From an uncultured Gammaproteobacteria bacterium (lineage in GTDB: Bacteria > Patescibacteriota > Patescibacteriia > Magasanikbacterales > UBA922), in contig CAYFPM010000002.1 in NCBI GenBank assembly GCA_964345045.1, positions 140,330-204,329 on the forward strand: a DNA stretch of 64,000 nt, written 5' to 3'. This document shows, piece by piece, positions 10,322 through 64,000 of this stretch; position 1 is the first letter of the stretch; the number at the start of each line of letters is the position of its first letter. A model generated the notes under the pieces. The model did no database searches. It worked only from the letters and a program-made list of their open reading frames with translations, and was not told where the DNA came from. Position numbers and translations under genes: made by a program.

Positions 10322-10360
10322 TAAAAAACCAAACCTGATTACAAGCATACACCAGGTTTA
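10322..10360 (-). terminator. intrinsic terminator after pilin paralog 4
   Basis: Minus-strand hairpin aaacctg...caggttt followed by a U-run (an A-run on the plus strand at 10323-10328). Confidence 0.55.
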
Positions 10361-10372
10361 GCCTGCCTATTA

Positions 10373-10744: not shown

Positions 10745-10758
10745 ATAGCTTAATAATA

Positions 10759-11127: not shown

Positions 11128-11129
11128 AA

Positions 11130-11693: not shown

Positions 11694-11704
11694 ATAATTA
11701 AAAA

Positions 11705-12319: not shown

Positions 12320-12329
12320 GGATCAAAAA

Positions 12330-12716: not shown

Positions 12717-12824
12717 AAAGATTGATTTTGGTGCAAAAGAAACAAAAATTATCTCTTTAGCACCACCATCAAAATACAAAGGGCAGAGATCTCCACGTGG
12801 GGTTAGACCCCTGCCCAATGTAAG

Positions 12825-13244: not shown

Positions 13245-13345
13245 AGTCTCACCTCCCTTCCGTTATAAATGTTTTTATTCATATAGCAATAGTATACGTG
13301 AATAAGCCTAGTTTTACAAAATAGATGTGGACAGTGATATAGGGT

Positions 13346-13416
13346 TTAGGCAACAGGCATTAGTAACTAGAAAAACACTATTGCCTATTCCCTATTCCCT
13401 ATTGCCTGTTGCCTAA
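13346..13416. repeat. intergenic palindromic element ttaggcaacaggcat ... attgcctgttgcctaa (family member b)
   Basis: 15-nt inverted repeat. The centre contains tactattgcc and three cctattcc direct repeats. Confidence 0.55.
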
Positions 13417-14210: not shown

Positions 14211-14219
14211 ACAATTAAC

Positions 14220-15071: not shown

Positions 15072-15083
15072 GTTTTAATATTT

Positions 15084-16196
15084 TTAAAATGGTCTAAAAA
15101 AATCTATTACACCAAAAGCGTCTAACAAGAAATTGACCAACAAGTAAGCGCTAAAAACTATTACCAAACCAACTACCGAAGCAACCAAGACATTAACCCC
15201 TTTTTTAAATTTTTCTGGATTACCAAAAGATGTAATCATAGTGATACCGCCTACCAAAAAACTAATAAAGGCAAGTAAACCAGCAAAACCAAACGCCCAA
15301 GTAGCATAACCAAGTTGCTGCTGCAAAATATCGTTCAAACTATCGCAAGTACCATCGTGACCACAAGGAGGAAAAGCTCCTGGTCTACTAAAATCTATAT
15401 TGCCCGACAAACCAGATTGGAGCAAGGTGTTGCATTTGCCAGTATCTTCATTCCACTTGCAAACTTTACTGCCAGCTCCACCATCACAAAGATCTTTGCT
15501 TCTCAATTTGAAACAGAGATCATTATTTTGTCTAGATTCACACTTGTTTTCAAAAACAAAACAAGAAGCCAAAGGACAGCTAGCAGCACTATGATCTAGG
15601 CAATTGATGGTTCCGCTTATCAAAACTTCATCTGAAAAACCTATAAAATATAGATATCTACCTCCATTTACCGCCGGGGTAGTGTATCTCACCCTAGAAT
15701 TACAACTTTGATTTGGAACTGAAACTGTTTTTTGTAATTTGTAAGAAACATTATCCAAAGTTTGTTTGTAAGCAAATCCAGCCACGTTATTTCGCCACCA
15801 GCCGGCAGTTTGAAAAACACCAGCCGAGCAGTAAGTAATTTCTTCGTTTACTAACCATTTCCCAGCACTATTAAATTCTATCCCCGTAGCCGTATTTAAT
15901 TCTTGCAATGCTCCAATAGTTTTTAGTTGATCATAACTAACGGTTTGGTCGTTTTGATCTACCAAAACACAAAAACTAAAATTAGGAATTGGTTCAAAAT
16001 TTGGATTACCGTTGTCATTGTTAGCTGCTACAAATACTGCATATCTTTTGCCACTGGGAGGAGTTGGGCAGTTAACATTGTAATCCGATTGAGCCAAGCT
16101 AGGAGAAGGAAATAAAAAGAAAATAAAAATCAAAAAAACCAGCTTGCTAAAATATTTTCTTATTTTTTGTTTTTTTAAATTTTTTGTTTTTAGCAT
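15084..16196 (-). CDS. secreted Cys-rich protein with a C-terminal pilin core (paralog 12)
   Basis: C-terminus FGFAGLLAFISFLVGGITMITSFGNPEKFKKGVNVLVASVVGLVIVFSAYLLVNFLLDAFG closely resembles paralog 11. Confidence 0.55.
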   Translation of the reverse strand: MLKTKNLKKQKIRKYFSKLVFLIFIFFLFPSPSLAQSDYNVNCPTPPSGKRYAVFVAANNDNGNPNFEPIPNFSFCVLVDQNDQTVSYDQLKTIGALQELNTATGIEFNSAGKWLVNEEITYCSAGVFQTAGWWRNNVAGFAYKQTLDNVSYKLQKTVSVPNQSCNSRVRYTTPAVNGGRYLYFIGFSDEVLISGTINCLDHSAASCPLASCFVFENKCESRQNNDLCFKLRSKDLCDGGAGSKVCKWNEDTGKCNTLLQSGLSGNIDFSRPGAFPPCGHDGTCDSLNDILQQQLGYATWAFGFAGLLAFISFLVGGITMITSFGNPEKFKKGVNVLVASVVGLVIVFSAYLLVNFLLDAFGVIDFFRPF

Positions 16197-28542: not shown

Positions 28543-30270
28543 ATGTTGTCGCAGGACTTACTACTAGATCTACTAAAATCCAAATACAATCTAAAAGCTC
28601 CCGAGATAAAAAACTACCAAACCAAGGCTCAAAAAATAAATAAAAGTTTGGAAGATTACCTTGTAGCAGAAGGAGTAATAGACGAAGTAGCCCTATATAC
28701 AGAAGCTGCCAAACTAATGGAAGTCCCTTTTACTATCTTAAAAGGCAAAGAAATAAAAAAAGAGGTTCTAAACATGGTACCGCCAAGTTTGGCTCAAACT
28801 CACAAAATAGTCGCTTTTGAAGCTAGCAAAACCGAAATTAGCTTGGCCATGCTCGACCCGCTAGACATACAAACCATAGAATTTATCCAAAGAAAAACTG
28901 GTTTAACCCCTGTAGCCTACTTGACTACACCAAGTGACATAAAAGATTCTCTGCGTCGCTACCATGCTGACTTAAACGAAGATATGATGGTAGTCCAACT
29001 AAGTAGCGAATCTGCCAAAGACGAAGGAGATCTAAAAAAAGTAGCCGAAGAATTACCTATAATTAATATAGTAAATAGTATACTAGAACATGCTGTTTTT
29101 GAAGGTGCCAGTGATATCCATATAGAACCACAAGAAAAAGAAGTATCTGTACGTTATCGAGTAGATGGAGTGTTAAAACAAGTCATGACTCTACCCAAAA
29201 AAGTACAAGCCGGTATTGTGGCTCGTATCAAAATTTTGTCTAAATTAAAAATAGACGAACATATGGTACCCCAAGACGGTAGGTTCAAAATACAAATCCA
29301 AGAAGACAAATTATCTTTTCGTGTTTCTATTATCCCAGTTTACGATGGCGAAAAAATAGTAATGCGTCTTTTGCGAGAAGATCAAAAACCCCTATCTCTA
29401 GACCAACTAGGATTTTTGCCAGGACCAAAAAAGCTGGTAGAATCTGCTATTCGTAGACCACATGGCATGGTGCTGGTTACCGGACCAACCGGATCTGGTA
29501 AGACCACTACCCTATACTCCATTTTGTTTATGTTAAACAAACCTGGAGTAAATATTTCTACCATCGAAGATCCTATCGAATACCATGTAAAAGGCATCAA
29601 CCAAAGCCAAATTAATCCTCGTGCCAAATTTACCTTTGCTTCTGGCCTGCGCGCCTTTTTGCGTCAAGATCCAGACATTATCATGGTTGGAGAAATCCGC
29701 GACGAAGAGACTGCAGAAGTTTCTATTCACGCCGCTATGACCGGTCACTTGGTACTCTCTACCCTCCATACCAACGATGCCCCTACCACCTTGCCTCGTC
29801 TTATGGATATGGGAGTTCCTCCATTTTTAGTTGCTTTTACCACCAATGTAATTGTAGCGCAAAGATTGGTAAGAAAAATCTGCAAAGACTGTAAAAAAGA
29901 ATTTACCTTGGATTCAAAAACCATAGAACAATTAGAAAAAATCCTTGACCAAAAATCTTTGCCTACCCTTTTCAAAAATCAAAATATAAAATTAAACCCC
30001 AAAGAAAAAAACTTGCAAAGCATGACATTTTATAGAGGTGAGGGTTGTAGAAAATGCAATCAATCTGGCTACAAAGGCCGAATTGGTATTTACGAAGTTC
30101 TCGATATAGACAAAGATCTGATCAACAAAATAAACCAAAGAGCCACTGCCGAAGAAATCCGCAAACACGCTATTAGCAAAAACATGATTACTATTTTGCA
30201 AGACGGCATTATAAAAGCCAAACAAGGAATCACCTCTATAGAAGAAGTCCTTCGTGTAACCAGAGATTAG
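28543..30270 (+). CDS. pilB: type IV pilus assembly ATPase (GspE/PilB family)
   Basis: N-terminal GSPII_E_N-like domains. Walker A LVTGPTGSGKTTTLYS. Asp and His boxes. C-terminal tetracysteine CRKC. Confidence 0.85.
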   Translation: MLSQDLLLDLLKSKYNLKAPEIKNYQTKAQKINKSLEDYLVAEGVIDEVALYTEAAKLMEVPFTILKGKEIKKEVLNMVPPSLAQTHKIVAFEASKTEISLAMLDPLDIQTIEFIQRKTGLTPVAYLTTPSDIKDSLRRYHADLNEDMMVVQLSSESAKDEGDLKKVAEELPIINIVNSILEHAVFEGASDIHIEPQEKEVSVRYRVDGVLKQVMTLPKKVQAGIVARIKILSKLKIDEHMVPQDGRFKIQIQEDKLSFRVSIIPVYDGEKIVMRLLREDQKPLSLDQLGFLPGPKKLVESAIRRPHGMVLVTGPTGSGKTTTLYSILFMLNKPGVNISTIEDPIEYHVKGINQSQINPRAKFTFASGLRAFLRQDPDIIMVGEIRDEETAEVSIHAAMTGHLVLSTLHTNDAPTTLPRLMDMGVPPFLVAFTTNVIVAQRLVRKICKDCKKEFTLDSKTIEQLEKILDQKSLPTLFKNQNIKLNPKEKNLQSMTFYRGEGCRKCNQSGYKGRIGIYEVLDIDKDLINKINQRATAEEIRKHAISKNMITILQDGIIKAKQGITSIEEVLRVTRD

Positions 30271-30336
30271 TTCATAGCCAATAGTGCATGGCCAATCGTC
30301 AGTAATACCGATTGGCTATGAACCATGAACTAAAAA
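30270..30336. repeat. intergenic repeat (copy 2) with perfect inverted repeat gttcatagccaat/attggctatgaac
   Basis: Shares catggccaatcg and ggctatgaac..gaactaaaa with the copy at 27161. Confidence 0.45.
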
Positions 30337-30434
30337 CTAGCTAAAAGTCCTGTCATTATGAATCAGTTCGAGAAAAAACAAACTGTCAATCAAAAAATTA
30401 TAAATAATTTCAGATTATACCTGTTTATTTTTTA

Positions 30435-30512
30435 ATTTTCGTAAATTCGTAAATTTATCCGATGCCTTGATCGGAGTCCGTATCGCTTGCGCATCGGACG
30501 TATTTCGTACAT
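30435..30512. repeat. array of TTCGTAAA/TTCGTACA octamers plus a ccgatgc/gcatcgg hairpin upstream of pilC
   Basis: ttttcgtaaattcgtaaattt and gtatttcgtacata. The same octamer array occurs at 51225-51305. Confidence 0.4.
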
Positions 30513-30521
30513 AATTTCATT

Positions 30522-31631
30522 ATGAAAAAAAAGCGAGAACTATCTCCGCTAGAAGAAAAGCTAAACGATTTTTTTAGTCGTTTTTCGCGTATCCCGTTTG
30601 TCCAAAAAATATTTTTTGTCGACCACTTGCGTACCATGGTGCATGCCAGTCTTTCTTTGGTAGAAGCCTTGGGTATCTTGGCCAAAGAAATAGAAAACCG
30701 CAAATTCAAAAAAATTATTGAAAAAATAAAAGACGAAGTAGAAGCCGGGAAACCACTTAGCGAAGCACTGGCAAAGTATCCCAAAGCTTTTCCACCTATT
30801 TATGTAAAAATGGTTTCTTCTGGAGAAATTTCCGGAAAATTGGACGAAGCCTTGGAGCAAGTAACTGTCCAAATGAAAAAATCACACGAACTAGCTTCTA
30901 GCATCCGCGGGGCTATGATCTATCCGGCAGTAATTCTTTTTGCTATGGGCGGGGTAGGTATACTTATGACCACAGTGGTATTGCCAAAACTAATTGGAAT
31001 ATTCGAAGAATTTGATACCGAATTACCTTTGGCCACCCAATTACTTATAAAATTAACTAACTTCTTGAGTAACCCTCTTTATTTAATTCTTTCCATTTCT
31101 TTATTAGTATCTTTTGTAGTTCTATTTGTGATATTATTAAGAAAAAGTCGTCCTTTTAGAAAAACTATTCACAATATAAATCTACACTTGCCAATTTTTG
31201 GTGGAGTTATAAAACAAATAAACTTAGCTCGTTTCTCGCTTACTCTGTCCTCTCTTTTGAAAAGTACTATTCCTATAATTGACGCCATGGAAATTACAGC
31301 CGAAACTTGCTCCAATGTAGTTTACCAAGATGCCATCCACAAAGTGGCCAAAGATATAAAATCCGGAACCCCTATTTCCGAACTGCTTCGCCAATACGAT
31401 ACCCTATTTCCACCAATGATAACCGAAATGGTCATGGTTGGCGAAAGATCGGGTGAAGTAGATAAACTTCTAGAAGAATTATCCAATTTTTTTGGCAACG
31501 AAGTAGACAAAACCATGAAAAACTTTACCTCTGTAATTGAACCGGTTATTATCTTGGCTCTAGGTATCGCCGTGGCCGGAGTAGCCGTAGCAGTAATCAT
31601 GCCAATGTATTCTTTGGTGCAAAATTTCTAA
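30522..31631 (+). CDS. pilC: type IV pilus inner-membrane platform protein (GspF/PilC family)
   Basis: T2SS-F repeat architecture. Motifs PLSEALAKYPKAFPPIYVKMVSSGEISG and PISELLRQYDTLFPPMITEMVMVGERSG. Confidence 0.8.
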   Translation: MKKKRELSPLEEKLNDFFSRFSRIPFVQKIFFVDHLRTMVHASLSLVEALGILAKEIENRKFKKIIEKIKDEVEAGKPLSEALAKYPKAFPPIYVKMVSSGEISGKLDEALEQVTVQMKKSHELASSIRGAMIYPAVILFAMGGVGILMTTVVLPKLIGIFEEFDTELPLATQLLIKLTNFLSNPLYLILSISLLVSFVVLFVILLRKSRPFRKTIHNINLHLPIFGGVIKQINLARFSLTLSSLLKSTIPIIDAMEITAETCSNVVYQDAIHKVAKDIKSGTPISELLRQYDTLFPPMITEMVMVGERSGEVDKLLEELSNFFGNEVDKTMKNFTSVIEPVIILALGIAVAGVAVAVIMPMYSLVQNF

Positions 31632-31632
31632 C

Positions 31633-32733
31633 ATGTTACTTTCTCCTTTTCCAAATGCTATCGGACTAGACATAAATGATTTGTCTATAAAACTAGTCCA
31701 ACTAAAAAATATCTCTAGAAGAAGTAAGGGAAGTTCTTTTGTTCTTTCTTCTGCCAGAAAAACATCTTTGCCACATGGTCTAATTGCCGATGGAATAATC
31801 CAAGAACCGGAAAAAGTTAGAAAATATTTGCAACATATTTTGAATAAAAAAGGGAGCAATGGCACAAAAATAAAATCTCCTTGGGCAGTCTGTTCTTTGC
31901 CAGACAGTCAAGGATTTTTAAAATTAATCCACTTGGAAAAAACAGCCGAAGACGTAATAGAAGAAGATATAAAAGAAGCAGCCAAAAGACATGTCCCCCT
32001 CGACGAAGGAGAATATTATCTAGATTGGCAGATAATGCCTCCTCATACCAGTGAATCTGAACATACAGATATCTTGCTTACAGCCATACCAGTCCATTTA
32101 TCAGATATGTATACTTATCTTTTGGAAAGTGTTGGGCTAACTCCGATTGCTCTAGAACTTCGAGCTCTCTCGACAGCTCGATCAGTTATACCTTTTCAAA
32201 CTCAAAATTCCGAAGGAGCCAGAGCCATCTTAGACATTGGAGCCACCCAATCTGTTATGACTATATATGATCACGGTTATATACAGTTTAGTAGAGCCTT
32301 ATCTTACTCTGGGGAAATATTGACTACAGCTATATCACAAAAATTACATTTGGATTACGAAAAAGCCGAAGAATTAAAAAAAGAAAATGGATTAGAATAC
32401 CAAAAAAGTAAAGTATGGCCAATCGTCTCGGGATTTACAGACAAATTGGTAGATGATGTCCAAAAAACCATAAGCTTTTATTACACTCATTTTCCAGATA
32501 GCAACAAGGTGACTCATATAGATATGTGCGGTGGAGTATCTGCTATGAGCAAATTGTCCGATATATTAAGTATGAAATTAAATATAGAATGTTCCATTAG
32601 CAACATCTGGCAAAACTTGCATAGCAAACGCCCGATTACCCTATCAAAAGAAAAATCGCTTCCATTTGCTACAGCGGCAGGGTTAGCTCTTAGAGCAGCC
32701 GATAATCCTTTTTTTAGATCTGATACTATCTAA
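31633..32733 (+). CDS. pilM: type IV pilus assembly protein PilM (actin-like ATPase)
   Basis: N-terminus GLDINDLSIKLVQL. Hsp70/actin-like fold signature. ATAAGLALRA near the C-terminus. Confidence 0.75.
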   Translation: MLLSPFPNAIGLDINDLSIKLVQLKNISRRSKGSSFVLSSARKTSLPHGLIADGIIQEPEKVRKYLQHILNKKGSNGTKIKSPWAVCSLPDSQGFLKLIHLEKTAEDVIEEDIKEAAKRHVPLDEGEYYLDWQIMPPHTSESEHTDILLTAIPVHLSDMYTYLLESVGLTPIALELRALSTARSVIPFQTQNSEGARAILDIGATQSVMTIYDHGYIQFSRALSYSGEILTTAISQKLHLDYEKAEELKKENGLEYQKSKVWPIVSGFTDKLVDDVQKTISFYYTHFPDSNKVTHIDMCGGVSAMSKLSDILSMKLNIECSISNIWQNLHSKRPITLSKEKSLPFATAAGLALRAADNPFFRSDTI

Positions 32734-32735
32734 GT

Positions 32736-33269
32736 ATGTTTCCTACTAGATTAAACTTATTATCTCCAAACAAACGCAAATACTTGCGTAAGATGCTGTA
32801 TGCCCAATTTGTCAAAGCTAGTTTGGAGAGTTTTGTTTTTGTTATTAGTTTGGTAAGTATTCTTTTTTTGGGGACAGAATGGGTGTTGCAAACCAACTTT
32901 AACAATCTTAGTACATCGCTTGTAACAAACAATGGCCAAGAAGCCGAAAGAAACAATAAGATAAAAAAGATAAATAATGTATTGGAAAAAATGACAGAAC
33001 TTCAAAAAACTCACACCTTATGGACATCTATAATGGAAGATTTTACCCGCGTGATTCCAAAAGAAATCACCCTAACTAGTCTAAATATAAATGAACTATC
33101 TGGTAATTACCAATTAAGTGGTACTGCCCCAACAAGAGATGATCTTCTGAAATTAAAAGCTAGCTTGGAATCTTTGGAATATATAGAACCTGTTGAGATT
33201 CCGCTATCTTTGCTTACTCAAAAAGAAGATATATCATTTTCTTTAACTGCCAAGCTAAAAACTCCTTAA
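32736..33269 (+). CDS. pilN: PilN-like bitopic membrane protein
   Basis: N-terminus RLNLLSPNKRK followed by a single TM segment, typical of PilN. Confidence 0.55.
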   Translation: MFPTRLNLLSPNKRKYLRKMLYAQFVKASLESFVFVISLVSILFLGTEWVLQTNFNNLSTSLVTNNGQEAERNNKIKKINNVLEKMTELQKTHTLWTSIMEDFTRVIPKEITLTSLNINELSGNYQLSGTAPTRDDLLKLKASLESLEYIEPVEIPLSLLTQKEDISFSLTAKLKTP

Positions 33270-33270
33270 T

Positions 33271-33852
33271 ATGAGATTGACTGCCAAAAAACAAATTTTT
33301 ATTTTGTTAAGCACTATTACTATTTTGGCAATGGCTATTATTATACTTATTGTAATCCCCACTACCAAAAGTATAGTTGAGTTAAGCAAACACACATCCG
33401 AAACCCAAGAAATAATAGAACAAAAATACCAAAGAGCAAAACTTTTAAAAAAATCTAGTCATTCTTTGGCTGATGCAGAATCAATTATAAGCAAATACGA
33501 AACAGCTGCACTAAAAAAAGGACAAGAGCTGGAAATGATTACCCTTTTGGAAAACATGGCCGAAGATTACAAAATAGAACAAACTTTGTCTGTAAATTAT
33601 GTAGAAGATGGATTACTTCAAGGCACACCCCGAAATAATTCGGCCAAAACCAACATAAAAACACCATTGTATATTTTTTCTTTTTTAAATCATGGAGAAT
33701 ACCAAGACCAATTAAAATATTTACGAGCTCTAGAAAGACTTCCACAGTATCTAATTATAGAAAACATCCAATGGAACCATCGATCGCAAGGCTCCGAAGG
33801 ACAAAACTATGTTACCCTTCGATTTGATGCCAAAATTCGTATAAATGAATAA
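33271..33852 (+). CDS. PilO-like bitopic membrane protein
   Basis: Single N-terminal TM segment followed by a coiled-coil, in the PilO position of the operon. Confidence 0.4.
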   Translation: MRLTAKKQIFILLSTITILAMAIIILIVIPTTKSIVELSKHTSETQEIIEQKYQRAKLLKKSSHSLADAESIISKYETAALKKGQELEMITLLENMAEDYKIEQTLSVNYVEDGLLQGTPRNNSAKTNIKTPLYIFSFLNHGEYQDQLKYLRALERLPQYLIIENIQWNHRSQGSEGQNYVTLRFDAKIRINE

Positions 33853-49517: not shown

Positions 49518-49793
49518 TTATTTTCTTTTCTCTATTTCTTTGTAAACAACCGATCTGTGTTCAATGGCAAATATTTTGACTAGTTTTTTCTCAATCCTAA
49601 ATATAACTCTATAACTACCTACTCTTAATTTTCTATATCCCTTTAGCGATCTACGCAAAGGCAAACCGAACAAATCTGGTTCTTTTATTAATTTGTTTTC
49701 AATAGCTAGACGAATTCTTTTTTTTGCTGTTCCTGATAATTTTTTTATATCTTCTTTTACCACTGCTTCGTGATAAACAATCTCGTAACTCAT
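49518..49793 (-). CDS. type II toxin, RelE/ParE family
   Basis: Start MSYEIVYHE. KGYRKLRVGSYRVIFRIE...IFAIEHRS is a typical ParE/RelE sequence. It overlaps the upstream antitoxin gene by 4 nt (49790-49793). Confidence 0.65.
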   Translation of the reverse strand: MSYEIVYHEAVVKEDIKKLSGTAKKRIRLAIENKLIKEPDLFGLPLRRSLKGYRKLRVGSYRVIFRIEKKLVKIFAIEHRSVVYKEIEKRK

Positions 49794-50011
49794 ACCCAAG
49801 CTTCTTCATGAGAGACAAACTTGGATTTTCTTTTGTCTCTAGAGGTTGCTAATTTATCCCACACCACATCTTCTTCTATTTCTAGAGCCAGACTAAGCAA
49901 CTCGGCTGCTTTGGTAGCAGTAGGCACCCCATCTCGACGAGCTACCTTGGTAAGCACAGTGTCTACTGGTTTGGACAAAGTTACATTAATTCTTTTTTTA
50001 TCTGTTGGCAT
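49790..50011 (-). CDS. ribbon-helix-helix antitoxin
   Basis: KRINVTLSKPVDTVLTKVARRDGVPTATKAAELL is an RHH beta-alpha-alpha element. Encoded upstream of the toxin. Confidence 0.55.
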   Translation of the reverse strand: MPTDKKRINVTLSKPVDTVLTKVARRDGVPTATKAAELLSLALEIEEDVVWDKLATSRDKRKSKFVSHEEAWV

Positions 50012-50129: not shown

Positions 50130-51200
50130 CTAGGCTATGTGAAAATAGCAAACATCCCCATCTTTCACAAAATAATCCTTCCCTACCAATTGCATCTTCC
50201 CTTTCTCCTTTACACCATTCCAACCACCACAATCTACAAAGTCTTCCCACTCTGCCACATCGGCCTTTACAAACCCTTTTATAAAATCGGTATGAATCAC
50301 TCCGGCTGCTTCTGGCGCTGGAGTTTCTTTTTTTACTGTCCAAGCTCTGGTCTCTTCTACTCCACTGGTAAAATAAGTTACCAGATCTAGCAACTTGTAA
50401 CCAGCCAAAATAATTTTGTCGAGTCCAGATTGATCCATACCCAAGTCAGCCATATACTCTTTGGCCTCTTCTTTACTTAGGTCTGCCAACTCGGCTTCGA
50501 GTCTGGCACAAACAAAAACAACATCTTCACCAAAATCATTTAAAATTTTTGATTTATCATTTATGATTTCGTCAGTATTGACGATATACATCATTGGTTT
50601 CATGCTAAGCAGATGCAGCTCCTTCATAATTTCCATTTCGTCTTCGGTGTATTCCAATTCTCTGGCTGCTTTGCCGTTTTGCAAATGTTCACTTAGCTTT
50701 TCCAAAAGTTCAATTTCTAATTTCACTTCCTTGGCTTGGATTCCTTTGGCTTTTTTCTTGGTATTTTCCAAACGTTTGCTTACTGTTTGCCAATCTGCCA
50801 AAACAAGTTCCAAGTTAATTACATCGGCATCGTCTTTGGGATCAACTTTGTTGTGTACATGGGTAATGTTGCCATCTTCAAAAGCGCGCACTACCTGAGC
50901 AATGGCATCTACCTCACGAATATGGGTTAAAAATTTGTTTCCTAGTCCTTCTCCTTCGGAAGCTCCTTTTACCAGCCCGGCAATATCTACAAACTCTATG
51001 GTAGTAGGAATTGTTTTTTGTGAATTGGAAACTTCGGTCAAAGCTTGTAAGCGATGGTCTGGTACCTCAACAATTCCAACGTTTGGTTCGATAGTGCAGA
51101 ATGGATAATTTTGGGCATCGGCTTGCTTGCTACTAGTTAAAGCATTGAAAAGTGTAGACTTGCCTACATTTGGAAGACCGACAATACCTAAAGACAACAT
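50130..51200 (-). CDS. ychF: ribosome-binding ATPase YchF
   Basis: G1 motif GIVGLPNVGKSTLFNALT. TGS domain at the C-terminus. Confidence 0.85.
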   Translation of the reverse strand: MLSLGIVGLPNVGKSTLFNALTSSKQADAQNYPFCTIEPNVGIVEVPDHRLQALTEVSNSQKTIPTTIEFVDIAGLVKGASEGEGLGNKFLTHIREVDAIAQVVRAFEDGNITHVHNKVDPKDDADVINLELVLADWQTVSKRLENTKKKAKGIQAKEVKLEIELLEKLSEHLQNGKAARELEYTEDEMEIMKELHLLSMKPMMYIVNTDEIINDKSKILNDFGEDVVFVCARLEAELADLSKEEAKEYMADLGMDQSGLDKIILAGYKLLDLVTYFTSGVEETRAWTVKKETPAPEAAGVIHTDFIKGFVKADVAEWEDFVDCGGWNGVKEKGKMQLVGKDYFVKDGDVCYFHIA

Positions 51201-51305: not shown

Positions 51306-51312
51306 ATAGCTG

Positions 51313-51386
51313 TGGACCTGAGGGGATTTGAACCCCTGACTTCTACCATGCCATGGTAGCACTCTAGCCAGCTGAGTTACAGGCCC
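51313..51386 (-). tRNA. tRNA-Ala (anticodon GGC)
   Basis: Minus-strand GGGCCTG-TA-ACTC..GAGT-CTACC-ATGGCAT-GGTAG-AAGTC-AGGGG-TTCAAAT-CCCCT-CAGGTCC-A with the G3:U70 alanine identity pair. Confidence 0.75.
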
Positions 51387-51485: not shown

Positions 51486-51640
51486 CAAAAAATATCAAGA
51501 GTGAGGATAGCGACTTGGCGCCACAACCCTCTACCAACCGAGCTTAACTACGGTGGTTCCAACCCCAATGGGAAAGATAGGCCTTTTAAACAAAAGGAAA
51601 ATAAGGAGTTTCTTATCTTATCCGGGTAAGAAATTTTTGT
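51486..51640 (+). ncRNA. candidate SAM-I (S-box) riboswitch with an intrinsic terminator expression platform
   Basis: P1 UAUC/GAUA. J1/2 AAGAG. Segments resembling the S-box consensus (AUCAAGAG, ACCAACC, GGUGnUUCC, GAAAGAUA). A terminator hairpin tttctta-N11-taagaaa plus a U-run lies at 51607-51640, about 75 nt before the ATG. Confidence 0.45.
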
Positions 51641-51716: not shown

Positions 51717-52649
51717 ATGAAAGACGGAAAAGACACTTATTTCTTCAGCGATTGCTTTCAACACGGAAGCTCCCAATTTGATCCGAATGCCGCCTCCCGA
51801 ACGATGGCTCGCTTTCGCAAGATTAGTAGACAAATCAGGCCAGAAGTATCCCCACCTTTCCTCGACAGACAAGGAGCTTGGCGAGGGACTGACCTAGGTT
51901 TTCTGATGGCCGAGTTGGCTCATCAACACACAGGGCTGGTCATTGGTGGAAATGCTGCCAAGCGAATCCCTGGGAAAAAAAACGGAACTTCTTTTTCTTT
52001 GGCAACGGTAGGTGGCAACCTAATCCTTTCTACTGTGGGCAAAAACACCTACCCAGTAATGGCTCGTCTTCTTGGGCTAGACTCAATCGAAGTTGCCCTC
52101 CTCGATATCGGAAACGCTGCCCAGAAGATGAATGTCCAAAACAAAGAAAGGATGACAACCACTCAATACCGTTCGCTCTGGTTTCAAACAGCGGCTTTGG
52201 CTCAGCTGGCTCACCTCGAAACACTCCCCACTCACCCAAATTCGATCTTCGGCGGGGAAGTAAAAACAATCAAGCCTGACAGCGGAATGCGAATTGTCTA
52301 TATCGATAGCTTCGGAAACTTGAAGCTCTCTGGTAGAAGAAAAGACTTGCCCAAGGGAGAAAGAATCAAGGTCTCTTTCCCAGAAAAAGCACATCGAAAC
52401 CTCTCGCCACTTGGAGCGAACAACACAGCACATATCACAGGTGGAAGGGAAAACGAATTTCAAGTTTCAGTCGGATCAAGTATCCCTACCGAAGCAGGCG
52501 GTCTACTAGAACTCCAAATCCTCGGTGGAACTAGGATAGGAGTCGATACGGCTGCAGACAAAGTTCTAGGGCACTTCCTGGGCGTCCCGGACGTTCGCTG
52601 CCATCACGACCTCATAGGTATCAAAGTGAGGCTCAGCAAAGCCTCCTAA
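51717..52649 (+). CDS. DUF62-like protein (SAM hydroxide adenosyltransferase / SalL-FlA family), GC-rich gene
   Basis: N-terminus FFSDCFQHGSS. Central YRSLWFQTAALAQLA. C-terminal domain IVYIDSFGNLKLS resembles the D.FGN motif of DUF62 enzymes. Foreign-like codon usage. Confidence 0.4.
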   Translation: MKDGKDTYFFSDCFQHGSSQFDPNAASRTMARFRKISRQIRPEVSPPFLDRQGAWRGTDLGFLMAELAHQHTGLVIGGNAAKRIPGKKNGTSFSLATVGGNLILSTVGKNTYPVMARLLGLDSIEVALLDIGNAAQKMNVQNKERMTTTQYRSLWFQTAALAQLAHLETLPTHPNSIFGGEVKTIKPDSGMRIVYIDSFGNLKLSGRRKDLPKGERIKVSFPEKAHRNLSPLGANNTAHITGGRENEFQVSVGSSIPTEAGGLLELQILGGTRIGVDTAADKVLGHFLGVPDVRCHHDLIGIKVRLSKAS

Positions 52650-52673
52650 AACCTTCTATTAGTTTTGGCACAA

Positions 52674-52737
52674 ACGCAGGAAGCAGATTGAGTCTAGTCG
52701 ACAAACCTACGTCGATTGAGATTCTCGCTTCCTGCGT
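52674..52737. repeat. long imperfect hairpin acgcaggaagc...gcttcctgcgt after the DUF62-like gene
   Basis: Arms of about 28 nt with a few mismatches. No T-run follows. Confidence 0.4.
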
Positions 52738-52930
52738 TCGATCCATCTCTAAAAAACAATTATAACAACCTTACAAAAAAAGGTTTTTTATTTGTTTTTT
52801 ATAATTATATTGTACGACATTATTTATTATTTAATTTTAGTCATTTTTTACAAAAAATTAACAAGGGTAACTCTTCCTCCAAAACAATTTTACAAACCAC
52901 TCCTCTCAAACCACACCCTCAGACAAAAAA

Positions 52931-52946
52931 TGTTCCACGTGGAACA
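52931..52946. promoter_or_regulatory. perfect 16-bp palindrome TGTTCCACGTGGAACA (site 1)
   Basis: Exact self-complementary 16-mer with a CACGTG core. It shares flanking sequence ...tttgatt..gattt with site 3. Confidence 0.5.
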
Positions 52947-53089
52947 TTTTGATTCTAGATTTTTGGATTATGATTTCAAAAATCAAACATATCGCACCTC
53001 ACTTCAATTAAACCAAAATTTTACCTTATCTCGGTTTTGTTGGAACAAAATCAAATCAATAATTCCAAGCTCTTACATCTGCAATCATT

Positions 53090-53105
53090 TGTTCCACGTG
53101 GAACA
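53090..53105. promoter_or_regulatory. perfect 16-bp palindrome TGTTCCACGTGGAACA (site 2)
   Basis: Exact copy lying 60 nt downstream of the Ham1-like gene. Confidence 0.5.
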
Positions 53106-53164
53106 AAACAACAGCCTAAAAGCTGTTATTATTTTGTATACAATAGTGTGTACAATTATACTTT

Positions 53165-53773
53165 TTATTTTAAATATTCTTCTATAGATTTATCAAACAC
53201 TTCTTGTAAGTCGCTATATGCCAATAGATTTTCCTCTCTTTTCATTTCTGCATGAAACTTACCCAGTTTCTGGTTGTAGCAAAGTGCTGACAAAGGTAAC
53301 CCTGAAATATAATGGGGTTGATTGTCTACAAGTTTGAAAGCAAATTCTCTATTGTAGGCAAATTCTATTATTTTTCCTTCTGCAGTACAGATAGCAAAGG
53401 CAAAATGCCATTTGCCTCCTGTTAAGTTTTTTTCAACAATTTGTTTGTGCCAATAATCATATATTTCTTTATCTGTGGCTCTGGTCTTACCATCAAAAAT
53501 TCTTCTAGCATGCACCCCTGGTTGCTCAGCTTCTGAGATTTCATCTACAAACAGAGCAATGTCTACAGCCAAAACATCTGTTTTAAATTCACGAGAGTAT
53601 ACACTAGCCTTATATTTGGCGTTTTTTTCGGCAGTTTCAAAAGGCTCCTCAACTTCAAAATCAACAGAAAAATCATTCAAAGACTTAATCTCCAAATTCT
53701 CATATTTGACAAGGTAATGAGAAAAAAATTCCAATTTTCCAGAATTAGTTGTAGCCAAAGTTAATTCTTTCAT
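53165..53773 (-). CDS. Ham1/RdgB-family non-canonical purine NTP pyrophosphatase-like protein
   Basis: N-terminus LATTNSGKLEFF resembles the ITPase motif LATGNxGKxxEF. About 200 aa. Confidence 0.5.
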   Translation of the reverse strand: MKELTLATTNSGKLEFFSHYLVKYENLEIKSLNDFSVDFEVEEPFETAEKNAKYKASVYSREFKTDVLAVDIALFVDEISEAEQPGVHARRIFDGKTRATDKEIYDYWHKQIVEKNLTGGKWHFAFAICTAEGKIIEFAYNREFAFKLVDNQPHYISGLPLSALCYNQKLGKFHAEMKREENLLAYSDLQEVFDKSIEEYLK

Positions 53774-53816
53774 TCAATAAATACTACTGATTACCCAAAG
53801 TAAGAAGACGATCAAT

Positions 53817-53832
53817 TGTTCCACGTGGAACA
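53817..53832. promoter_or_regulatory. perfect 16-bp palindrome TGTTCCACGTGGAACA (site 3, 44 nt upstream of the Ham1-like start)
   Basis: Exact copy in an operator position for the gene at 53165-53773. Confidence 0.5.
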
Positions 53833-53920
53833 ATTTGATTACGGATTTATGAATCTTGATTGCTAAATTTTGGTTGATTAAAGAATATTCCAAAATCAAA
53901 AATCATAATTCAGAAATTCA

Positions 53921-54053
53921 TTGTGCCCCCACCAGCCCGCCAGAGGCGGATCACCCGAAGGGTGAGAATCCCAGCCTCCGGCTGATGACCCGTAGGGTCA
54001 GAACCTAGATTTAGGCGTTAGGAGTGCCTCGTTCCCAGCCTGCCACTGCCTGT
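53921..54053. other. GC-rich structured element of unknown nature next to tRNA-Arg(CCT)
   Basis: A series of short GC hairpins (ccgcc-aga-ggcgg, caccc-gaa-gggtg, gaccc-gta-gggtc, ccta-gatt-tagg). Its end, ggtgggggcaca, repeats the tRNA 3' acceptor sequence gacgggggcaca. Confidence 0.25.
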
Positions 54054-54125
54054 GCCCCCGTCACGAATCGAACGTGAACCCAAAACTTAGGAGGTTTTTG
54101 TTCTATCCATTAAACTACAGGGGCA
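54054..54125 (-). tRNA. tRNA-Arg (anticodon CCT)
   Basis: Minus-strand GCCCCTG-TA-GTTT-AATGGATA-GAAC-A-AAAAC-CTCCTAA-GTTTT-GGGT-TCACG-TTCGATT-CGTGA-CGGGGGC-A. Confidence 0.7.
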
Positions 54126-54170
54126 TTGGCACTGGCGGGCAGGTATCCATTGAACTACAGGGCTTAACTT
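54126..54170 (-). other. partial duplicate of the tRNA-Arg 5' region (GCCCTGTAGTTCAATGGATA)
   Basis: Lies immediately 5' of the tRNA and matches its first 21 nt except for 2 nt. It does not continue into a cloverleaf. Confidence 0.3.
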
Positions 54171-54322
54171 AGGTAAAAATAAGTGTCGTACAATTATTCT
54201 AATGATCTATTCTTACAAACCAGAGTAGGCTATTCAAAAAAATAATTTCTGTTATACTACTTTTACTATATAAACGAACAAACCTAGTCTAGCTAGGTTT
54301 GTGGAAAAAATCAACCTTATAT

Positions 54323-55447
54323 ATGGAAAATATTCTACTTACAATTGTTTCACTCGGTCTTGCTGCCGCTGTAGGCGTAATCTTTTTTATGTTCAAGAAG
54401 TTATCCGATTTGCAGCAAGGCAAAAATTCTGGAGACGAAGAAAAAAACATGTTTGTCATGCTGCAAAACCAAATGCAAGATCTAGCCAAAACTTTTGACA
54501 ACAAAATGGGGGAGACGCACAAAACCATGCACGCCACTCAGCAAGATATTAACAAAACTTTGCAAGAACAATTTGGTCACAATACCCGATTGATCCAAGG
54601 TGTTACGAGCCAAAGCACCAAAATGATTGCAGACATCACCGAGAAACTTACTAGTCTTGATAAAACTAATCAACAAGTGATTGGTTTTTCTGAACAGCTA
54701 AATAACTTGGAAAAAGTTTTGAAAAGCCAAAAACAAAGAGGGAATCTGGGCGAAGCTGGTTTGCAACTAGTGCTAGAAAACATTTTGCCTCCAACTGCTT
54801 TTTCTATTCAGCATAATTTTAAAGATGGTGACACGGTGGACGCAGCTATCTTTACCAAAGATGGGATTATCCCAGTTGATGCCAAATTCTCTTTGGAAAA
54901 TTATCAAAAACTAATTGACGAAACCGATGAAAACCGCAAAGCCACGCTAGAGCGAGAATTTAAAAATGATTTGAAAAAACGCATTGACGAAACTAGTAAA
55001 TACATAAAACCAAAAGAGGGGACACTCGATTTTGCCTTTATGTTTATTCCGAGCGAAGCTATTTATTATGATCTCTTGGTAAACGAAGTTGGCGCTGTCA
55101 AAGTTAACACCAGAGATTTGATTGATTATGCTTTTAATGAAAAGAAAGTGATTATAGTTTCACCAACTACTTTTGCTGCTTACCTCCAAACAGTTTTGCA
55201 AGGTTTGCGCGCACTCAAAATTGAAGAAGGAGCCAAGAGTATACGAAAAAATGTGGAGATGCTGGGTAAACATGTCAAAGCTTACGAAGAATATATGAAA
55301 AAGCTTGGCAGCAGCATGACCACTACTGTAAATCATTACAACACAGCTTACAAAGAACTAGGCAAGATTGATAAAGACGTGATGAAAATAACTGATGGTG
55401 AAAAAATGATTGAGGTGGAGCAGATTGAGCGGCCAAAAGGGGAGTAG
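54323..55447 (+). CDS. rmuC: DNA recombination protein RmuC
   Basis: N-terminal TM helix plus coiled-coil. C-terminal RmuC nuclease-like domain ([34 protein letters not shown]). Confidence 0.75.
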
Positions 55448-61714: not shown

Positions 61715-62092
61715 TTATAATAAAACTCTCGCCCTTTTCAAAACATTCACCACACTCTTTTCGATATCTTTATACTCTGCTTCCAAAATCTGTGGCTTGG
61801 CCATAACAGAAACCATAAAACCATTTTTTATCTTGCCGTCTTTTATAAGCAATCTTACCACTTCTCTCATTTGTCTTTTGATCCGATTTCTCTTTACAGC
61901 ACTTTTATGAATTTTTTTGCTAACCACAAATCCAATCAACGTTTTGTCTTTGGAATAATTCCGACGAGGATGTTTGTCTGGATCAACTTGCCATACTTTG
62001 GCTGTTACCACTTTTTCACCCACAAAAAAACCTTCTTTGAAGAGGATATCAAAATCTTTCATGTGTTTTAGGCGGTATTCTTTGGGAAGCAT
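61715..62092 (-). CDS. rnpA: ribonuclease P protein component
   Basis: Motif FVVSKKIHKSAVKRNRIKRQMRE. Immediately downstream of rpmH. Confidence 0.75.
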   Translation of the reverse strand: MLPKEYRLKHMKDFDILFKEGFFVGEKVVTAKVWQVDPDKHPRRNYSKDKTLIGFVVSKKIHKSAVKRNRIKRQMREVVRLLIKDGKIKNGFMVSVMAKPQILEAEYKDIEKSVVNVLKRARVLL

Positions 62093-62194
62093 ACTCAAAA
62101 ATAGACAAGATACAGGAATCAATATACATCAGTATAAAATAAATTTGTATCTTATTCCATATATTTTGTATTTTAAAAACCCCTTAAGGGGTTT

Positions 62195-62371
62195 TTAACG
62201 TGTTTTACGCATTCTTTTGCCACTGCGCTCATCGCTTACAGTTAGCTTTTTGCGGCCTTTTTGGCGACGGCGTTTTAGCACATCGCGACCATCTTTGGAT
62301 TTCATACGGCTACGAAAACCATGAGTCTTGGCGCGTTTGCGTTTTTTTGGTTGATAAGTTCTTTTTGGCAT
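62195..62371 (-). CDS. rpmH: 50S ribosomal protein L34 (58 aa, C-terminally extended)
   Basis: [45 protein letters not shown]... . It is not in the ORF track because it is under 60 aa. A hairpin aaaacccctt/aaggggtttt lies between rpmH and rnpA. Confidence 0.8.
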
Positions 62372-62549: not shown

Positions 62550-63242
62550 TTATGAGACCTGGCACTCGTCGTAGAGGCCATGCCACCAGCTGCCCATGGC
62601 AGATAGGACGGCTTGGGCTCCGCAGACAAAGTCGGCTTGGCACACTCCGTGGCTTTGCAAAAGAGCTTGCTTCAACCCTTCCTGATGCCCGGGCTCCCAG
62701 ACGTTGATGTGCTTATCCAAGAATTTTCGCAGGCCATTAGCCAGTGGTTTGTTATGGAAATCCTCAGAAAGCCTCTCCAAGAGGACCTTTACGACCAACA
62801 GCTCGGGACGAGCCGTAGCCTCCAGAGCATAGGCTGCCCCCAAGGAAAGTGACGAATTAGAACCGTTAATCGCATCTTCGACACTACCAAGAAAGCTACT
62901 TGTAGCCTTCGAGGAAATGGTATGGCGAACGGACAACCCCAAGCCTACCTGGAGTGTCCCTTCCAGCATCTCGTAGTGGGTAATACCCACACTGTCCGAG
63001 CCGAGTTCTTCGCCGATATTGCGGCTGAGCTCTAGCTCTACAGTCTTCAAACCACACCGACGCGCTGCATCCCTAGATCTCGTCAGAAACCGGACAATCT
63101 CCTTGGGAAAAAGAGTGTATTGAGCAACAACATACTCCAGGATCGCACGGTTGGTGTGGCGCGTGGTGAAGGGGTTCCCATCGACCTTTAGCTCAGCAGT
63201 GCTTGCCACGAGTGCGTCGATGGTCTGGATTGAATTTTTCAT
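62550..63242 (-). CDS. hypothetical protein (230 aa), GC-rich, possibly a heme-oxygenase-like or iron-containing redox enzyme fold
   Basis: Higher GC than its neighbours. Helical sequence with a NIGEELG....H.EM segment reminiscent of ExxH metal sites. Weak assignment. Confidence 0.3.
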   Translation of the reverse strand: MKNSIQTIDALVASTAELKVDGNPFTTRHTNRAILEYVVAQYTLFPKEIVRFLTRSRDAARRCGLKTVELELSRNIGEELGSDSVGITHYEMLEGTLQVGLGLSVRHTISSKATSSFLGSVEDAINGSNSSLSLGAAYALEATARPELLVVKVLLERLSEDFHNKPLANGLRKFLDKHINVWEPGHQEGLKQALLQSHGVCQADFVCGAQAVLSAMGSWWHGLYDECQVS

Positions 63243-63380
63243 TAGAAGGATCTCTCTTGTCTACACCAACCAGATGGTTAGCGGCTCAAGCATTCTTTAT
63301 CTTGAACAAGTCATTGTAACTTAATTTTACGTTTTTGTAAATATTAAACTGTATATTTATTGTTATTTATTTAAAATATG

Positions 63381-63409
63381 TTGACATTTAGCTAAAAAAA
63401 TGATATAAT
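63381..63409 (+). promoter_or_regulatory. consensus sigma70 promoter TTGACA-17-TATAAT
   Basis: TTGACA at 63381-63386 and TATAAT at 63404-63409. A second TTGACA at 63415. Confidence 0.6.
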
Positions 63410-63432
63410 TAATATTGACAAAAACATACAAA

Positions 63433-64000
63433 TATGGATATTCACAAACAATTATCACAAATTGGTCTACACAAATCAGAAATTGAGGTTTACCTATACT
63501 TACTCGAAAATGGCATTTCTACCCCACCACAAATAGCCAAAGGCACCAAAATTGCTCGTACCAATTGCTACAATCTACTCCAAAGCCTAAAAGACAAAGG
63601 CCTAATCTTGGAACAAGAGAAAGGCAAAAGAAAAGCTTATATAGCTTCTGACCCAGAGGCAATTCTTCGCTCTATAGAGCAAAAAAAAGAAGCAGTAGAG
63701 AGAATTTTGCCAGATCTTCGCGCTCTCTATACCACCCAAAAAAACAAACCAACTATCAAATTTTACGAAGGTTTTGAGCAAATTAAAGAGATATACTGGC
63801 AAGCCACCCAAACAGAAAAGCTTTTGGCAATTGGGTCTACCAAACTACTAAGCGAAAAAGACCCTATTTTCTTTAAAAAATTTCAAGAAGAATTAAAAAG
63901 AAAAGAAGTTTTCTTGCAAGACATTATTACCAGCCAATCAGAAACTGTTGGTACAGAAGAAACCAAGCAAATTCTAAAAGGTTTTTATGATTTTCAAACT
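63433..64000 (+). CDS. TrmB-family HTH transcriptional regulator (3' end beyond the window)
   Basis: MDIHKQLSQIGLHKSEIEVYLYLLENGISTPPQIAKGTKIARTNCYNLLQSLKDKGLI matches the TrmB winged-helix N-terminus. No stop codon within the window. Confidence 0.6.

What the first reader, a model, noticed from the sequence alone, without database searches (positions are those of the whole stretch)
52931..53832. Three exact copies of the 16-bp palindrome TGTTCCACGTGGAACA bracketing a Ham1-like gene
A perfect 16-mer palindrome with a CACGTG core occurs at 52931, 53090 and 53817. Site 3 is 44 nt upstream of the start of the Ham1/RdgB-like gene (53165-53773). Sites 1 and 2 lie in the AT-rich spacer downstream of it. 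Sites 1 and 3 also share about 25 nt of flanking sequence. Three exact 16-mers within 900 bp are far beyond chance. They could be operators for a dimeric regulator with looping, or the ends of a small inverted-repeat element.
Basis: seen in the sequence. Interest (0 to 1): 0.6.

Follow-up and report, generated by a model that had tools for sequence, protein, structure and literature searches.

The report
Chromosomal parS centromere sites near oriC
The three identical 16-bp palindromes are ordinary parS sites, the centromere-like sequences where the ParB protein loads to organise and segregate the bacterial chromosome. They lie about 10 kb from the replication-initiator gene dnaA in an uncultured Patescibacteria genome, and they are not a dedicated switch for the neighbouring Ham1-like gene.

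Summary
TGTTCCACGTGGAACA occurs exactly three times (52931, 53090, 53817), and nothing else in the window comes within 3 mismatches of it.

The sequence is a known element. It is base-for-base the perfect-palindrome parS of Pseudomonas aeruginosa (parS2/parS3) and P. putida, and it fits the pan-bacterial consensus TGTTNCACGTGNAACA.

- **Origin-proximal position.** rpmH and rnpA are in the window. dnaA, flanked by DnaA-box-like 9-mers, starts about 10.5 kb to the right of site 3.
- **Association across phyla.** I fetched 120 other genome loci carrying the exact 16-mer. Of these, 34 hold 2-5 copies within 8 kb, and 95 carry parA/parB, mnmG, rsmG, dnaA, dnaN, recF, gyrB or yidC.
- **Conserved position in relatives.** Ten of 11 related Patescibacteria contigs that hold both rmuC and ychF have parS-like sites in the same interval, rmuC - tRNA-Arg(CCT) - parS - tRNA-Ala(GGC) - ychF. 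None of them has a Ham1-like gene there.

The bracketing of the Ham1-like gene is therefore incidental. ParB bound at site 3 could still dampen that gene's promoter.

The weak point is that no parB gene appears in the roughly 78 kb of this genome I could read. This is a known kind of element and of low interest.

The parts
52931..52946 (.). parS site 1 (TGTTCCACGTGGAACA)
   Evidence: Exact match, identical to P. aeruginosa parS2/parS3. A sigma-70-like promoter match on the minus strand (52979 to 52952, TTGAAA-16-TAGAAT) ends 5 nt before it.
53090..53105 (.). parS site 2
   Evidence: Exact match. It lies directly beside the hairpin plus T-run at 53110-53127 downstream of the Ham1-like gene. The same arrangement, hairpin plus T-run then parS, is seen in relatives L141, L144 and L148.
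53817..53832 (.). parS site 3
   Evidence: Exact match. It lies 43 nt upstream of the Ham1-like ATG and about 220 nt from tRNA-Arg(CCT).
52928..52981 (+). 54-nt direct repeat, copy A (site 1 plus its right flank)
   Evidence: 80% identical to 53814-53867 (D1). It indicates that one site arose by local duplication.
53814..53867 (+). 54-nt direct repeat, copy B (site 3 plus its right flank)
   Evidence: D1. A further short match (D6: 52975-52990 against 53888-53903) extends the homology across an indel.
53165..53773 (-). Ham1/RdgB-like orphan gene lying between sites 2 and 3. It is context, not part of the centromere.
   Evidence: Family assignment. In the word-indexed protein search it hit only itself. 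It is absent from the syntenic interval in all relatives.
54052..54124 (-). tRNA-Arg(CCT), conserved boundary of the parS interval
   Evidence: Found in the window. The same tRNA flanks the parS sites in 8 relatives.
51312..51386 (-). tRNA-Ala(GGC), conserved boundary of the parS interval on the ychF side
   Evidence: Found in the window and between the parS sites and ychF in 6 of the 8 relatives scanned.
54299..55447 (+). rmuC, syntenic anchor
   Evidence: Pfam RmuC E=8e-52. It is conserved next to the interval in 11 related contigs.
50130..51200 (-). ychF, syntenic anchor
   Evidence: Pfam YchF-GTPase_C and MMR_HSR1. It was the query that retrieved the related loci.
61715..62371 (-). rnpA and rpmH, origin-region marker genes; dnaA follows at about 64316-65704(+), just outside the window
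   Evidence: Gene calls in L001 and L125. DnaA-box-like 9-mers lie at 64179, 64199 and 65705-65883 in extended window coordinates.

Best explanation
The three palindromes are chromosomal parS sites, the centromere-like loading sites of the ParABS partition system, in the origin-proximal region of a Patescibacteria (Magasanikbacteria-like) chromosome.

Mechanism, taken from established work on ParB and not shown here: a ParB dimer recognises the 16-bp palindrome through its helix-turn-helix domains. It binds CTP and closes into a clamp that slides off parS, so many ParB dimers accumulate over several kb and bridge DNA. This complex is moved by ParA and/or loads SMC condensin, which organises and segregates the newly replicated origins.

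Three closely spaced sites simply give a stronger loading zone. One of them arose by duplication of a segment of about 54 nt.

The Ham1-like gene is a lineage-specific passenger in a variable intergenic interval. ParB sitting on site 3, just downstream of the likely promoter, may lower its expression as a side effect, as reported for parS3/parS4 in P. aeruginosa.
For: (1) Identity. The 16-mer equals P. aeruginosa parS2/parS3 (PMC4368675, Table 1) and the P. putida parS. It fits the consensus TGTTNCACGTGAAACA and its TGTTCCACGTGGAAC- variants listed for many phyla (PMC7022226, Table 1).

(2) Origin proximity.
- rpmH and rnpA lie at 61.7-62.4 kb.
- dnaA starts about 10.5 kb from site 3 and is followed by dnaN.
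- Six of the 20 DnaA-box-like 9-mers in 66.6 kb flank dnaA.
- GC skew is negative in 28 of the 32 2-kb bins of the window, which fits an origin to its right.

(3) Association across phyla.
- In 120 genome loci carrying the exact 16-mer, 34 have 2-5 copies within 8 kb.
- 95 of the 120 carry at least one origin-region gene cluster: MnmE/MnmG, ParA/ParB, RecF, GyrB, RsmG, DnaA, DnaN or YidC. Pfam confirmed the family labels on representatives.
- 23 of the 120 loci encode a protein with the GERRxRA motif of ParB.

(4) Conservation in the lineage.
- Eleven distinct related contigs hold both rmuC and ychF (YchF 65-74% identical).
- Ten of them have 1-3 parS-like sites (0-2 mismatches) inside the rmuC-ychF interval and none elsewhere in the fetched DNA. 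Eight of the ten have a site with at most 1 mismatch.
- 19 sites with at most 1 mismatch were found in all 80 loci, against 0.15 expected.
- The tRNA-Arg(CCT) and tRNA-Ala(GGC) framing is the same as in the window.

(5) Two other Patescibacteria contigs carry clusters of the exact 16-mer: L030 has 3 copies and L124 has 4.

No Ham1-like gene accompanies the motif anywhere else.
Against: - No parB or parA gene was found in the window or in the roughly 14 kb of adjoining contig I could read, using a ParB HMM at maximum sensitivity and Pfam scans of 47 ORFs.
- None was found within 10 kb of dnaA in three relatives, or within 10 kb of ychF in the 63 loci that look Patescibacteria-like (YchF about 64-75% identical).
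- Three relatives have no parS-like site within 10 kb of dnaA. That is expected if their sites also sit beyond that range.
- No binding data exist for this organism.
Confidence: 0.93

Rival explanations
1. The sites are operators of a dedicated dimeric transcription factor, such as the TrmB-family protein at 63434 or a bHLH-like protein, that controls the Ham1-like gene and an unannotated transcript by DNA looping.
For: Site 3 lies 43 nt upstream of the Ham1-like ATG. Site 1 directly follows a sigma-70-like promoter match on the minus strand. A TrmB-family gene sits beside dnaA, and a full-length homologue (22% identity, E=4e-14) lies about 0.5 kb from the parS cluster of a Kerfeldbacteria contig.
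Against: The 16-mer is the literature-defined parS. Across 120 loci it co-occurs with origin genes, not with Ham1 or TrmB genes; TrmB appears in only 1 of the 120. In 10 related contigs the sites are kept while the genes between them are replaced. The promoter scan is at chance level: 5 matches found against 4.7 expected.
Confidence: 0.03
2. The sites are a leftover partition site of an integrated plasmid, phage or other element that inserted at tRNA-Arg. The Ham1-like gene would be its cargo, and the sites would not be the chromosome's own centromere.
For: The sites sit next to tRNA-Arg(CCT), which has partial tRNA duplications (D3). The segment is AT-rich, about 30% GC against about 38% for the window. 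The Ham1-like gene is an orphan. A tyrosine recombinase and many T4SS-pilin genes lie elsewhere in the window.
Against: parS-like sites occupy the same rmuC - tRNA-Arg - tRNA-Ala - ychF interval in 10 related contigs whose intervening genes differ, so the sites are ancestral and the cargo is the variable part. No integrase, ParB or replication gene lies in the 1.4-kb segment. The location is origin-proximal.
Confidence: 0.03
3. The sites are the terminal inverted repeats of a small non-autonomous transposable element (MITE).
For: Identical palindromes bracket a gene, and sites 1 and 3 share flanking sequence.
Against: The shared flank is a direct repeat, not an inverted one (D1). There are no target-site duplications and no further copies in the window or the adjoining DNA. 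The identical 16-mer is found in many phyla, always with origin genes.
Confidence: 0.01

Closest known systems
parS2/parS3 of Pseudomonas aeruginosa PAO1, and the parS of P. putida
   Same: The 16-bp sequence TGTTCCACGTGGAACA is identical. In both cases the sites are intergenic, lie in a cluster of several sites within about 15 kb of oriC, and sit upstream of neighbouring genes (PMC4368675 and PMC7022226).
   Different: The host is an uncultured Patescibacteria (Magasanikbacteria-like) genome with about 38% GC. All three copies are perfect palindromes. The cognate parB has not been seen in the available sequence, whereas in Pseudomonas parAB is close to oriC.
Bacillus subtilis Spo0J/ParB parS sites (consensus TGTTNCACGTGAAACA)
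   Same: Same palindrome family and origin-domain clustering. The presumed role, ParB loading followed by SMC recruitment, is the same (PMC7022226). ychF is also an origin-region neighbour of parB in a Bacillaceae locus carrying the exact 16-mer (L098).
   Different: Positions 5 and 12 are C/G here rather than T/A. Relatives of this organism use both variants, as well as CATGTG or CACATG cores.
Myxococcus xanthus parS cluster (TGTTCCACGTGGAACG, 22 sites)
   Same: Same C/G variant of the half-site, with many tightly spaced sites.
   Different: There are three sites here rather than 22.

Membership tests
Chromosomal parS (ParABS centromere) | 16-bp palindrome matching TGTTNCACGTGNAACA | tested here: met
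   Three exact matches, identical to the experimentally defined P. aeruginosa parS2/parS3.
Chromosomal parS (ParABS centromere) | Location in the origin-proximal domain of the chromosome | tested here: met
   dnaA starts about 10.5 kb from site 3. rpmH and rnpA are 8 kb away. DnaA-box-like 9-mers cluster beside dnaA.
Chromosomal parS (ParABS centromere) | Few copies, clustered, and rare elsewhere in the genome | tested here: inconclusive
   Only these three sites (at most 2 mismatches) occur in about 78 kb of this genome. The rest of the genome could not be read.
Chromosomal parS (ParABS centromere) | Cognate ParB (ParB_N plus HTH_ParB) encoded in the same genome | tested here: inconclusive
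   Not found in the window or in adjoining contig pieces by ParB HMM or Pfam.
Chromosomal parS (ParABS centromere) | The same motif is associated with parAB and oriC genes in other bacteria | tested here: met
   95 of 120 loci with the exact 16-mer carry origin-region genes and 34 of 120 have 2-5 copies. ParB-like proteins occur in 23 of the loci.
Chromosomal parS (ParABS centromere) | Sites conserved at a syntenic position in related genomes | tested here: met
   10 of 11 related contigs have parS-like sites only inside the rmuC - tRNA-Arg - tRNA-Ala - ychF interval. The chance expectation is 0.15 sites.
Chromosomal parS (ParABS centromere) | ParB binding, CTP-dependent spreading and a segregation phenotype | not testable with these tools
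   This needs biochemistry or ChIP, and the organism is uncultured.
Operator of a gene-specific transcription factor for the Ham1-like gene | The motif co-occurs with the regulated gene family or with a linked regulator across genomes | tested here: not met
   No Ham1-like gene occurs in the 120 loci with the exact 16-mer or in the 80 loci fetched around ychF homologues. A TrmB-like gene occurs in only 1 of the 120.
MITE or other small inverted-repeat element | Terminal inverted repeats with target-site duplications and dispersed copies | tested here: not met
   The shared flank is a direct repeat, there is no target-site duplication, and there are no other copies.

The most novel reading that the evidence does not exclude
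This Patescibacteria lineage might keep a positionally conserved parS cluster (between tRNA-Arg and ychF) without a canonical ParB. I found no ParB in about 78 kb of this genome or in about 700 kb of related contigs. In that case the sites would be read by another protein, for example the TrmB-family helix-turn-helix protein encoded beside dnaA here, whose homologue sits beside the parS cluster of a Kerfeldbacteria contig.

A weaker variant is that ParB occupancy at these sites is used to control passenger nucleotide-sanitising genes. The passenger is Ham1-like here and a NUDIX hydrolase in L124.
Probability: 0.03. Interest if true: 0.6.

Novelty: already known. Interest (0 to 1): 0.1.

Why it matters
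For the scan, the result removes an apparent mystery motif: it is the standard bacterial centromere.

It has some practical value. It marks the origin-proximal domain of an uncultured Magasanikbacteria-like genome. It also shows that parS clusters sit in a conserved rmuC - tRNA-Arg - tRNA-Ala - ychF interval in this part of the Patescibacteria. In the paper library searched here, no paper holds the words Patescibacteria, ParB and parS together.

It does not open a new biological question unless the genome turns out to lack ParB.

Tried and rejected
- **LexA/SOS box, CRP/FNR-type or GntR-type operator.** I considered these from memory because of the TGTTC-N6-GAACA shape. I dropped them once the exact 16-mer was found in the parS literature and with origin genes across phyla.
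- **Inverted overlapping DnaA boxes.** The half-site TGTTCCAC only loosely resembles TTATCCACA. The real cluster of DnaA-box-like 9-mers is next to dnaA, not here.
- **Looking for parB.** A ParB HMM built from 14 ParBs of the fetched loci was run against six-frame translations of the window and all pieces of this genome. Pfam was run on 47 window ORFs. Both were negative.
- **Walking along the contig.** Attempts from DUF3865, rnpA, the DUF559 protein and DnaA returned only short contigs of about 5 kb or less.
- **Regions around dnaA in relatives.** The 10 kb on each side of dnaA in three relatives held no ParB and no parS.
- **Literature on ParB or parS in Patescibacteria/CPR.** Nothing relevant was found. 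The project accession PRJEB17505 is not in the paper library.
- **Rfam scan of 52600-54300 at E up to 1.** Only the tRNA was found.
- **Homologues of the Ham1-like protein.** The word-indexed search found none beyond the protein itself.

Full report
**Observation**

The palindrome TGTTCCACGTGGAACA occurs exactly at 52931, 53090 and 53817. No other position in the 64-kb window comes within three mismatches of it. Relaxing positions 5 and 12 to N adds only one chance-level hit with three mismatches.

The ORF between sites 2 and 3 (53165-53773, minus strand) is a divergent RdgB/HAM1-family protein. Site 3 ends 43 nt upstream of its ATG. Sites 1 and 2 lie in the spacer of about 30% GC between this gene and the convergent 310-aa ORF.

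In the 25 nt to the right of the palindrome 17 bases are identical, a value that 2% of random flank sets from the same AT-rich DNA reach.

**What the sequence is**

A full-text search for the 16-mer returned nine papers; seven of the eight listed concern ParB-parS chromosome or plasmid partition, or tools for studying it.

- Table 1 of PMC4368675 lists TGTTCCACGTGGAACA as the wild-type sequence of P. aeruginosa parS2 and parS3, the perfect palindromes of the four-site cluster next to oriC.
- The review PMC7022226 gives the same sequence for P. putida and TGTTCCACGTGGAACG for Myxococcus xanthus.
- It gives the general consensus TGTTNCACGTGAAACA for Firmicutes, Actinobacteria and Proteobacteria.

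The motif is therefore a textbook chromosomal parS.

**Context in this genome**

The window is bacterial and looks like Patescibacteria (CPR).

- It holds many T4SS_pilin (PF18895) paralogues, DUF5667 proteins and type IV pilus genes.
- The DnaA encoded just beyond the right end of the window is 75-84% identical to its nearest relatives. Those that carry a source name are Candidatus Magasanikbacteria or other Patescibacteria.

The sites are origin-proximal.

- rnpA and rpmH lie at 61715-62371(-).
- They are followed by a DUF3865 gene, a TrmB-family gene (63434-64174) and dnaA at about 64316-65704, then dnaN. Site 3 is thus about 10.5 kb from the start of dnaA.
- Six of the 20 DnaA-box-like 9-mers (at most 1 mismatch) in the 66.6 kb examined lie immediately on either side of dnaA.
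- The plus strand has negative GC skew in 28 of the 32 2-kb bins of the window, as expected if the origin lies to its right.

**Evidence from other genomes, exact 16-mer**

- 34 of the loci have two to five copies within 8 kb. That cannot happen by chance for a 16-mer.
- I clustered all ORFs of these loci. The commonest neighbour families were MnmE/MnmG, ParA/ParB, RecF, GyrB, RsmG, DnaA, DnaN and YidC. Pfam confirmed these labels on representatives.
- 95 of the 120 loci carry at least one of these families, and 23 encode a protein with the GERRxRA motif of ParB. These are the classic oriC-region genes.
- No locus carries a Ham1-like gene, and only one carries a TrmB-like gene.
- Two loci are Patescibacteria. 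L030 has three copies bracketing a TPR-like gene. L124, from Kerfeldbacteria, has four copies bracketing a NUDIX hydrolase gene. Sites in successive intergenic gaps that bracket small genes are therefore a common layout, not something special to Ham1.

**Evidence from close relatives**

I used YchF as a probe against metagenome contigs and obtained 63 loci that look Patescibacteria-like (YchF about 64-75% identical).

- 19 parS-like sites with at most one mismatch were found in the 80 fetched loci, against 0.15 expected.
- Twelve loci hold both rmuC and ychF. They represent eleven distinct contigs, because L143 and L144 show identical features.
- Ten of the eleven contigs have one to three parS-like sites (0-2 mismatches) inside the rmuC-ychF interval and none outside it in the fetched DNA. 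Eight of the ten have a site with at most one mismatch.
- The interval is framed by tRNA-Arg(CCT) in all eight relatives scanned and by tRNA-Ala(GGC) in six of them, exactly as in the window. There the order is rmuC 54299-55447, tRNA-Arg 54052-54124, the three sites, tRNA-Ala 51312-51386 and ychF 50130-51200.
- The sites drift only among known parS variants: T or C at position 5, A or G at position 12, and an occasional CATGTG or CACATG core.
- The genes between the sites are different in every contig. Neither the Ham1-like gene nor the 310-aa ORF has a homologue there.
- In several relatives a site abuts the 5' end of tRNA-Arg or follows a hairpin plus T-run, as site 2 does here.

The sites are the conserved feature and the Ham1-like gene is a passenger.

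**Mechanism**

This part is inferred from established knowledge and is not shown here.

- ParB dimers recognise parS, bind CTP, close into sliding clamps, spread over neighbouring DNA and bridge it.
- The resulting complex is segregated by ParA and recruits SMC. PMC7022226 summarises this, citing Soh 2019, Osorio-Valeriano 2019 and Jalal 2020.
- The same review reports that ParB bound to the intergenic parS3 and parS4 sites represses the adjacent PA0011 and PA0013 genes.
- A modest silencing effect of site 3 on the Ham1-like gene is therefore plausible. The same holds for site 1 on the promoter-like sequence just upstream of it on the minus strand, although that promoter scan is at chance level.

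**The weak point**

I could not find parB or parA.

- A ParB HMM at maximum sensitivity found nothing in the window or in any retrieved piece of this genome. Pfam scans of 47 window ORFs found nothing either.
- Attempts to walk further along the contig returned only short contigs.
- The 10 kb on each side of dnaA in three relatives held neither ParB nor parS.
- The loci around ychF in relatives have no ParB.

About 78 kb of this genome was visible. Its full size is not known, and Patescibacteria genomes are typically about 1 Mb (background knowledge), so this absence is uninformative. It does mean that the cognate reader is inferred.

**Rivals**

- A Ham1-specific operator is contradicted by the cross-genome associations.
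- A remnant of an integrated element at tRNA-Arg is contradicted by the conserved position of the sites in relatives whose cargo differs.
- A MITE is contradicted by the direct orientation of the shared flank and by the lack of other copies.

**Verdict**

This is a real, non-random feature, but it is an already known kind of element: parS. Interest is low. Its main use is as an origin and centromere landmark in an uncultured Patescibacteria genome.

Noticed in passing
window 53920-54165 (minus strand); also L155 7706-7900 and L156 7440-7650: The intact tRNA-Arg(CCT) is nested inside fragments of a second tRNA-Arg-like sequence.
- The 20 nt GCCCTGTAGTTCAATGGATA upstream match the 5' part of the tRNA-Arg of relatives.
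- Downstream come GAAC, an anticodon arm with CCT, TAGGTTC and, at the far end, TGGGGGCA.
- These fragments are interrupted by GC-rich hairpin inserts that end in GGCTGG.
- A 13-nt GC-rich leader/trailer pairing (54132-54144 with 53931-53943) encloses the tRNA.
- The whole 256 nt folds with z = -4.3.
- L156 has the same CCTGCCCGCCA leader and a roughly 53-nt unit repeated three times, made of the 3' part of the tRNA plus a GC-rich trailer. L155 has a partial tRNA repeat.

This could be a processing stem, integration scars or an unknown insertion. I did not resolve it.
   Followed up: partly
window 51487-51613 (+) and 51717-52649 (+): A SAM-I/IV riboswitch (Rfam RF01725, 45.6 bits against a gathering score of 41.1) precedes a 310-aa ORF. 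The ORF has about 50% GC in a genome of about 38% GC. It has no Pfam, NCBIfam or PDB match apart from a sub-threshold hit to the C-terminal domain of SAM hydroxide adenosyltransferase (E=0.003). It has no homologue in the same interval of relatives. A SAM-sensing switch in front of a possible SAM-cleaving enzyme would be unusual.
   Followed up: partly
window 52659-52752 (+): A long, nearly perfect hairpin lies directly after the 310-aa ORF (arms 52659-52684 and 52727-52752). Its free energy is -42.7 kcal/mol and z = -6.8. It is much larger than an ordinary terminator and is not followed by a T-run.
   Followed up: partly
window 53165-53773 (-): The Ham1/RdgB-like protein is an orphan. The word-indexed search of 5.8 billion proteins returned only itself. 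Its scores are far below the curated cut-offs of the NCBIfam models for the family (58.8 bits against a cut-off of 234 for the best-matching model). It may be a fast-evolving or recently acquired nucleotide-sanitising enzyme.
   Followed up: partly
window 62550-64000, continuing in L125; also L137 8114-9734 and L124 1989-2765: A DUF3865 gene (haem-oxygenase-like) and a TrmB-family helix-turn-helix gene are inserted between rpmH and dnaA, both here and in the closest relative (L137, whose DnaA is 84% identical). They are absent from two other relatives (L135, L138). A full-length TrmB-family homologue (22% identity, E=4e-14) lies about 0.5 kb from the four-copy parS cluster of a Kerfeldbacteria contig.
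   Followed up: partly
extended window coordinates 64179-64207 and 65705-65891 (in L125): DnaA-box-like 9-mers (at most 1 mismatch to TTATCCACA) cluster in the short gaps on both sides of dnaA. This suggests that oriC lies there, possibly in two parts.
   Followed up: partly
L124 140-1524 and L030 4091-5424: In two other Patescibacteria contigs, exact copies of the same parS bracket small genes: a NUDIX hydrolase in L124 and a TPR-like protein in L030. One L124 site sits a few nt before a tRNA gene.
   Followed up: partly
L148 7012-7030 and L155 7688-7706: In two relatives a parS-like site ends 2 nt before the first base of tRNA-Arg(CCT). The ParB loading site therefore overlaps the place where the tRNA promoter or leader must be.
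   Followed up: no
window 9463-16196 (-) and 28543-33852 (+): A run of T4SS_pilin (PF18895) paralogues (seven ORFs matched; neighbours of intervening ORFs also match in the L127 gene table) and, separately, a type IV pilus assembly operon (PilB-like ATPase, PilC, PilM, PilN).
   Followed up: no
window 49518-50011 (-): A ParE-toxin gene and a small upstream partner ORF (a likely toxin-antitoxin pair) sit between recQ and ychF.
   Followed up: no
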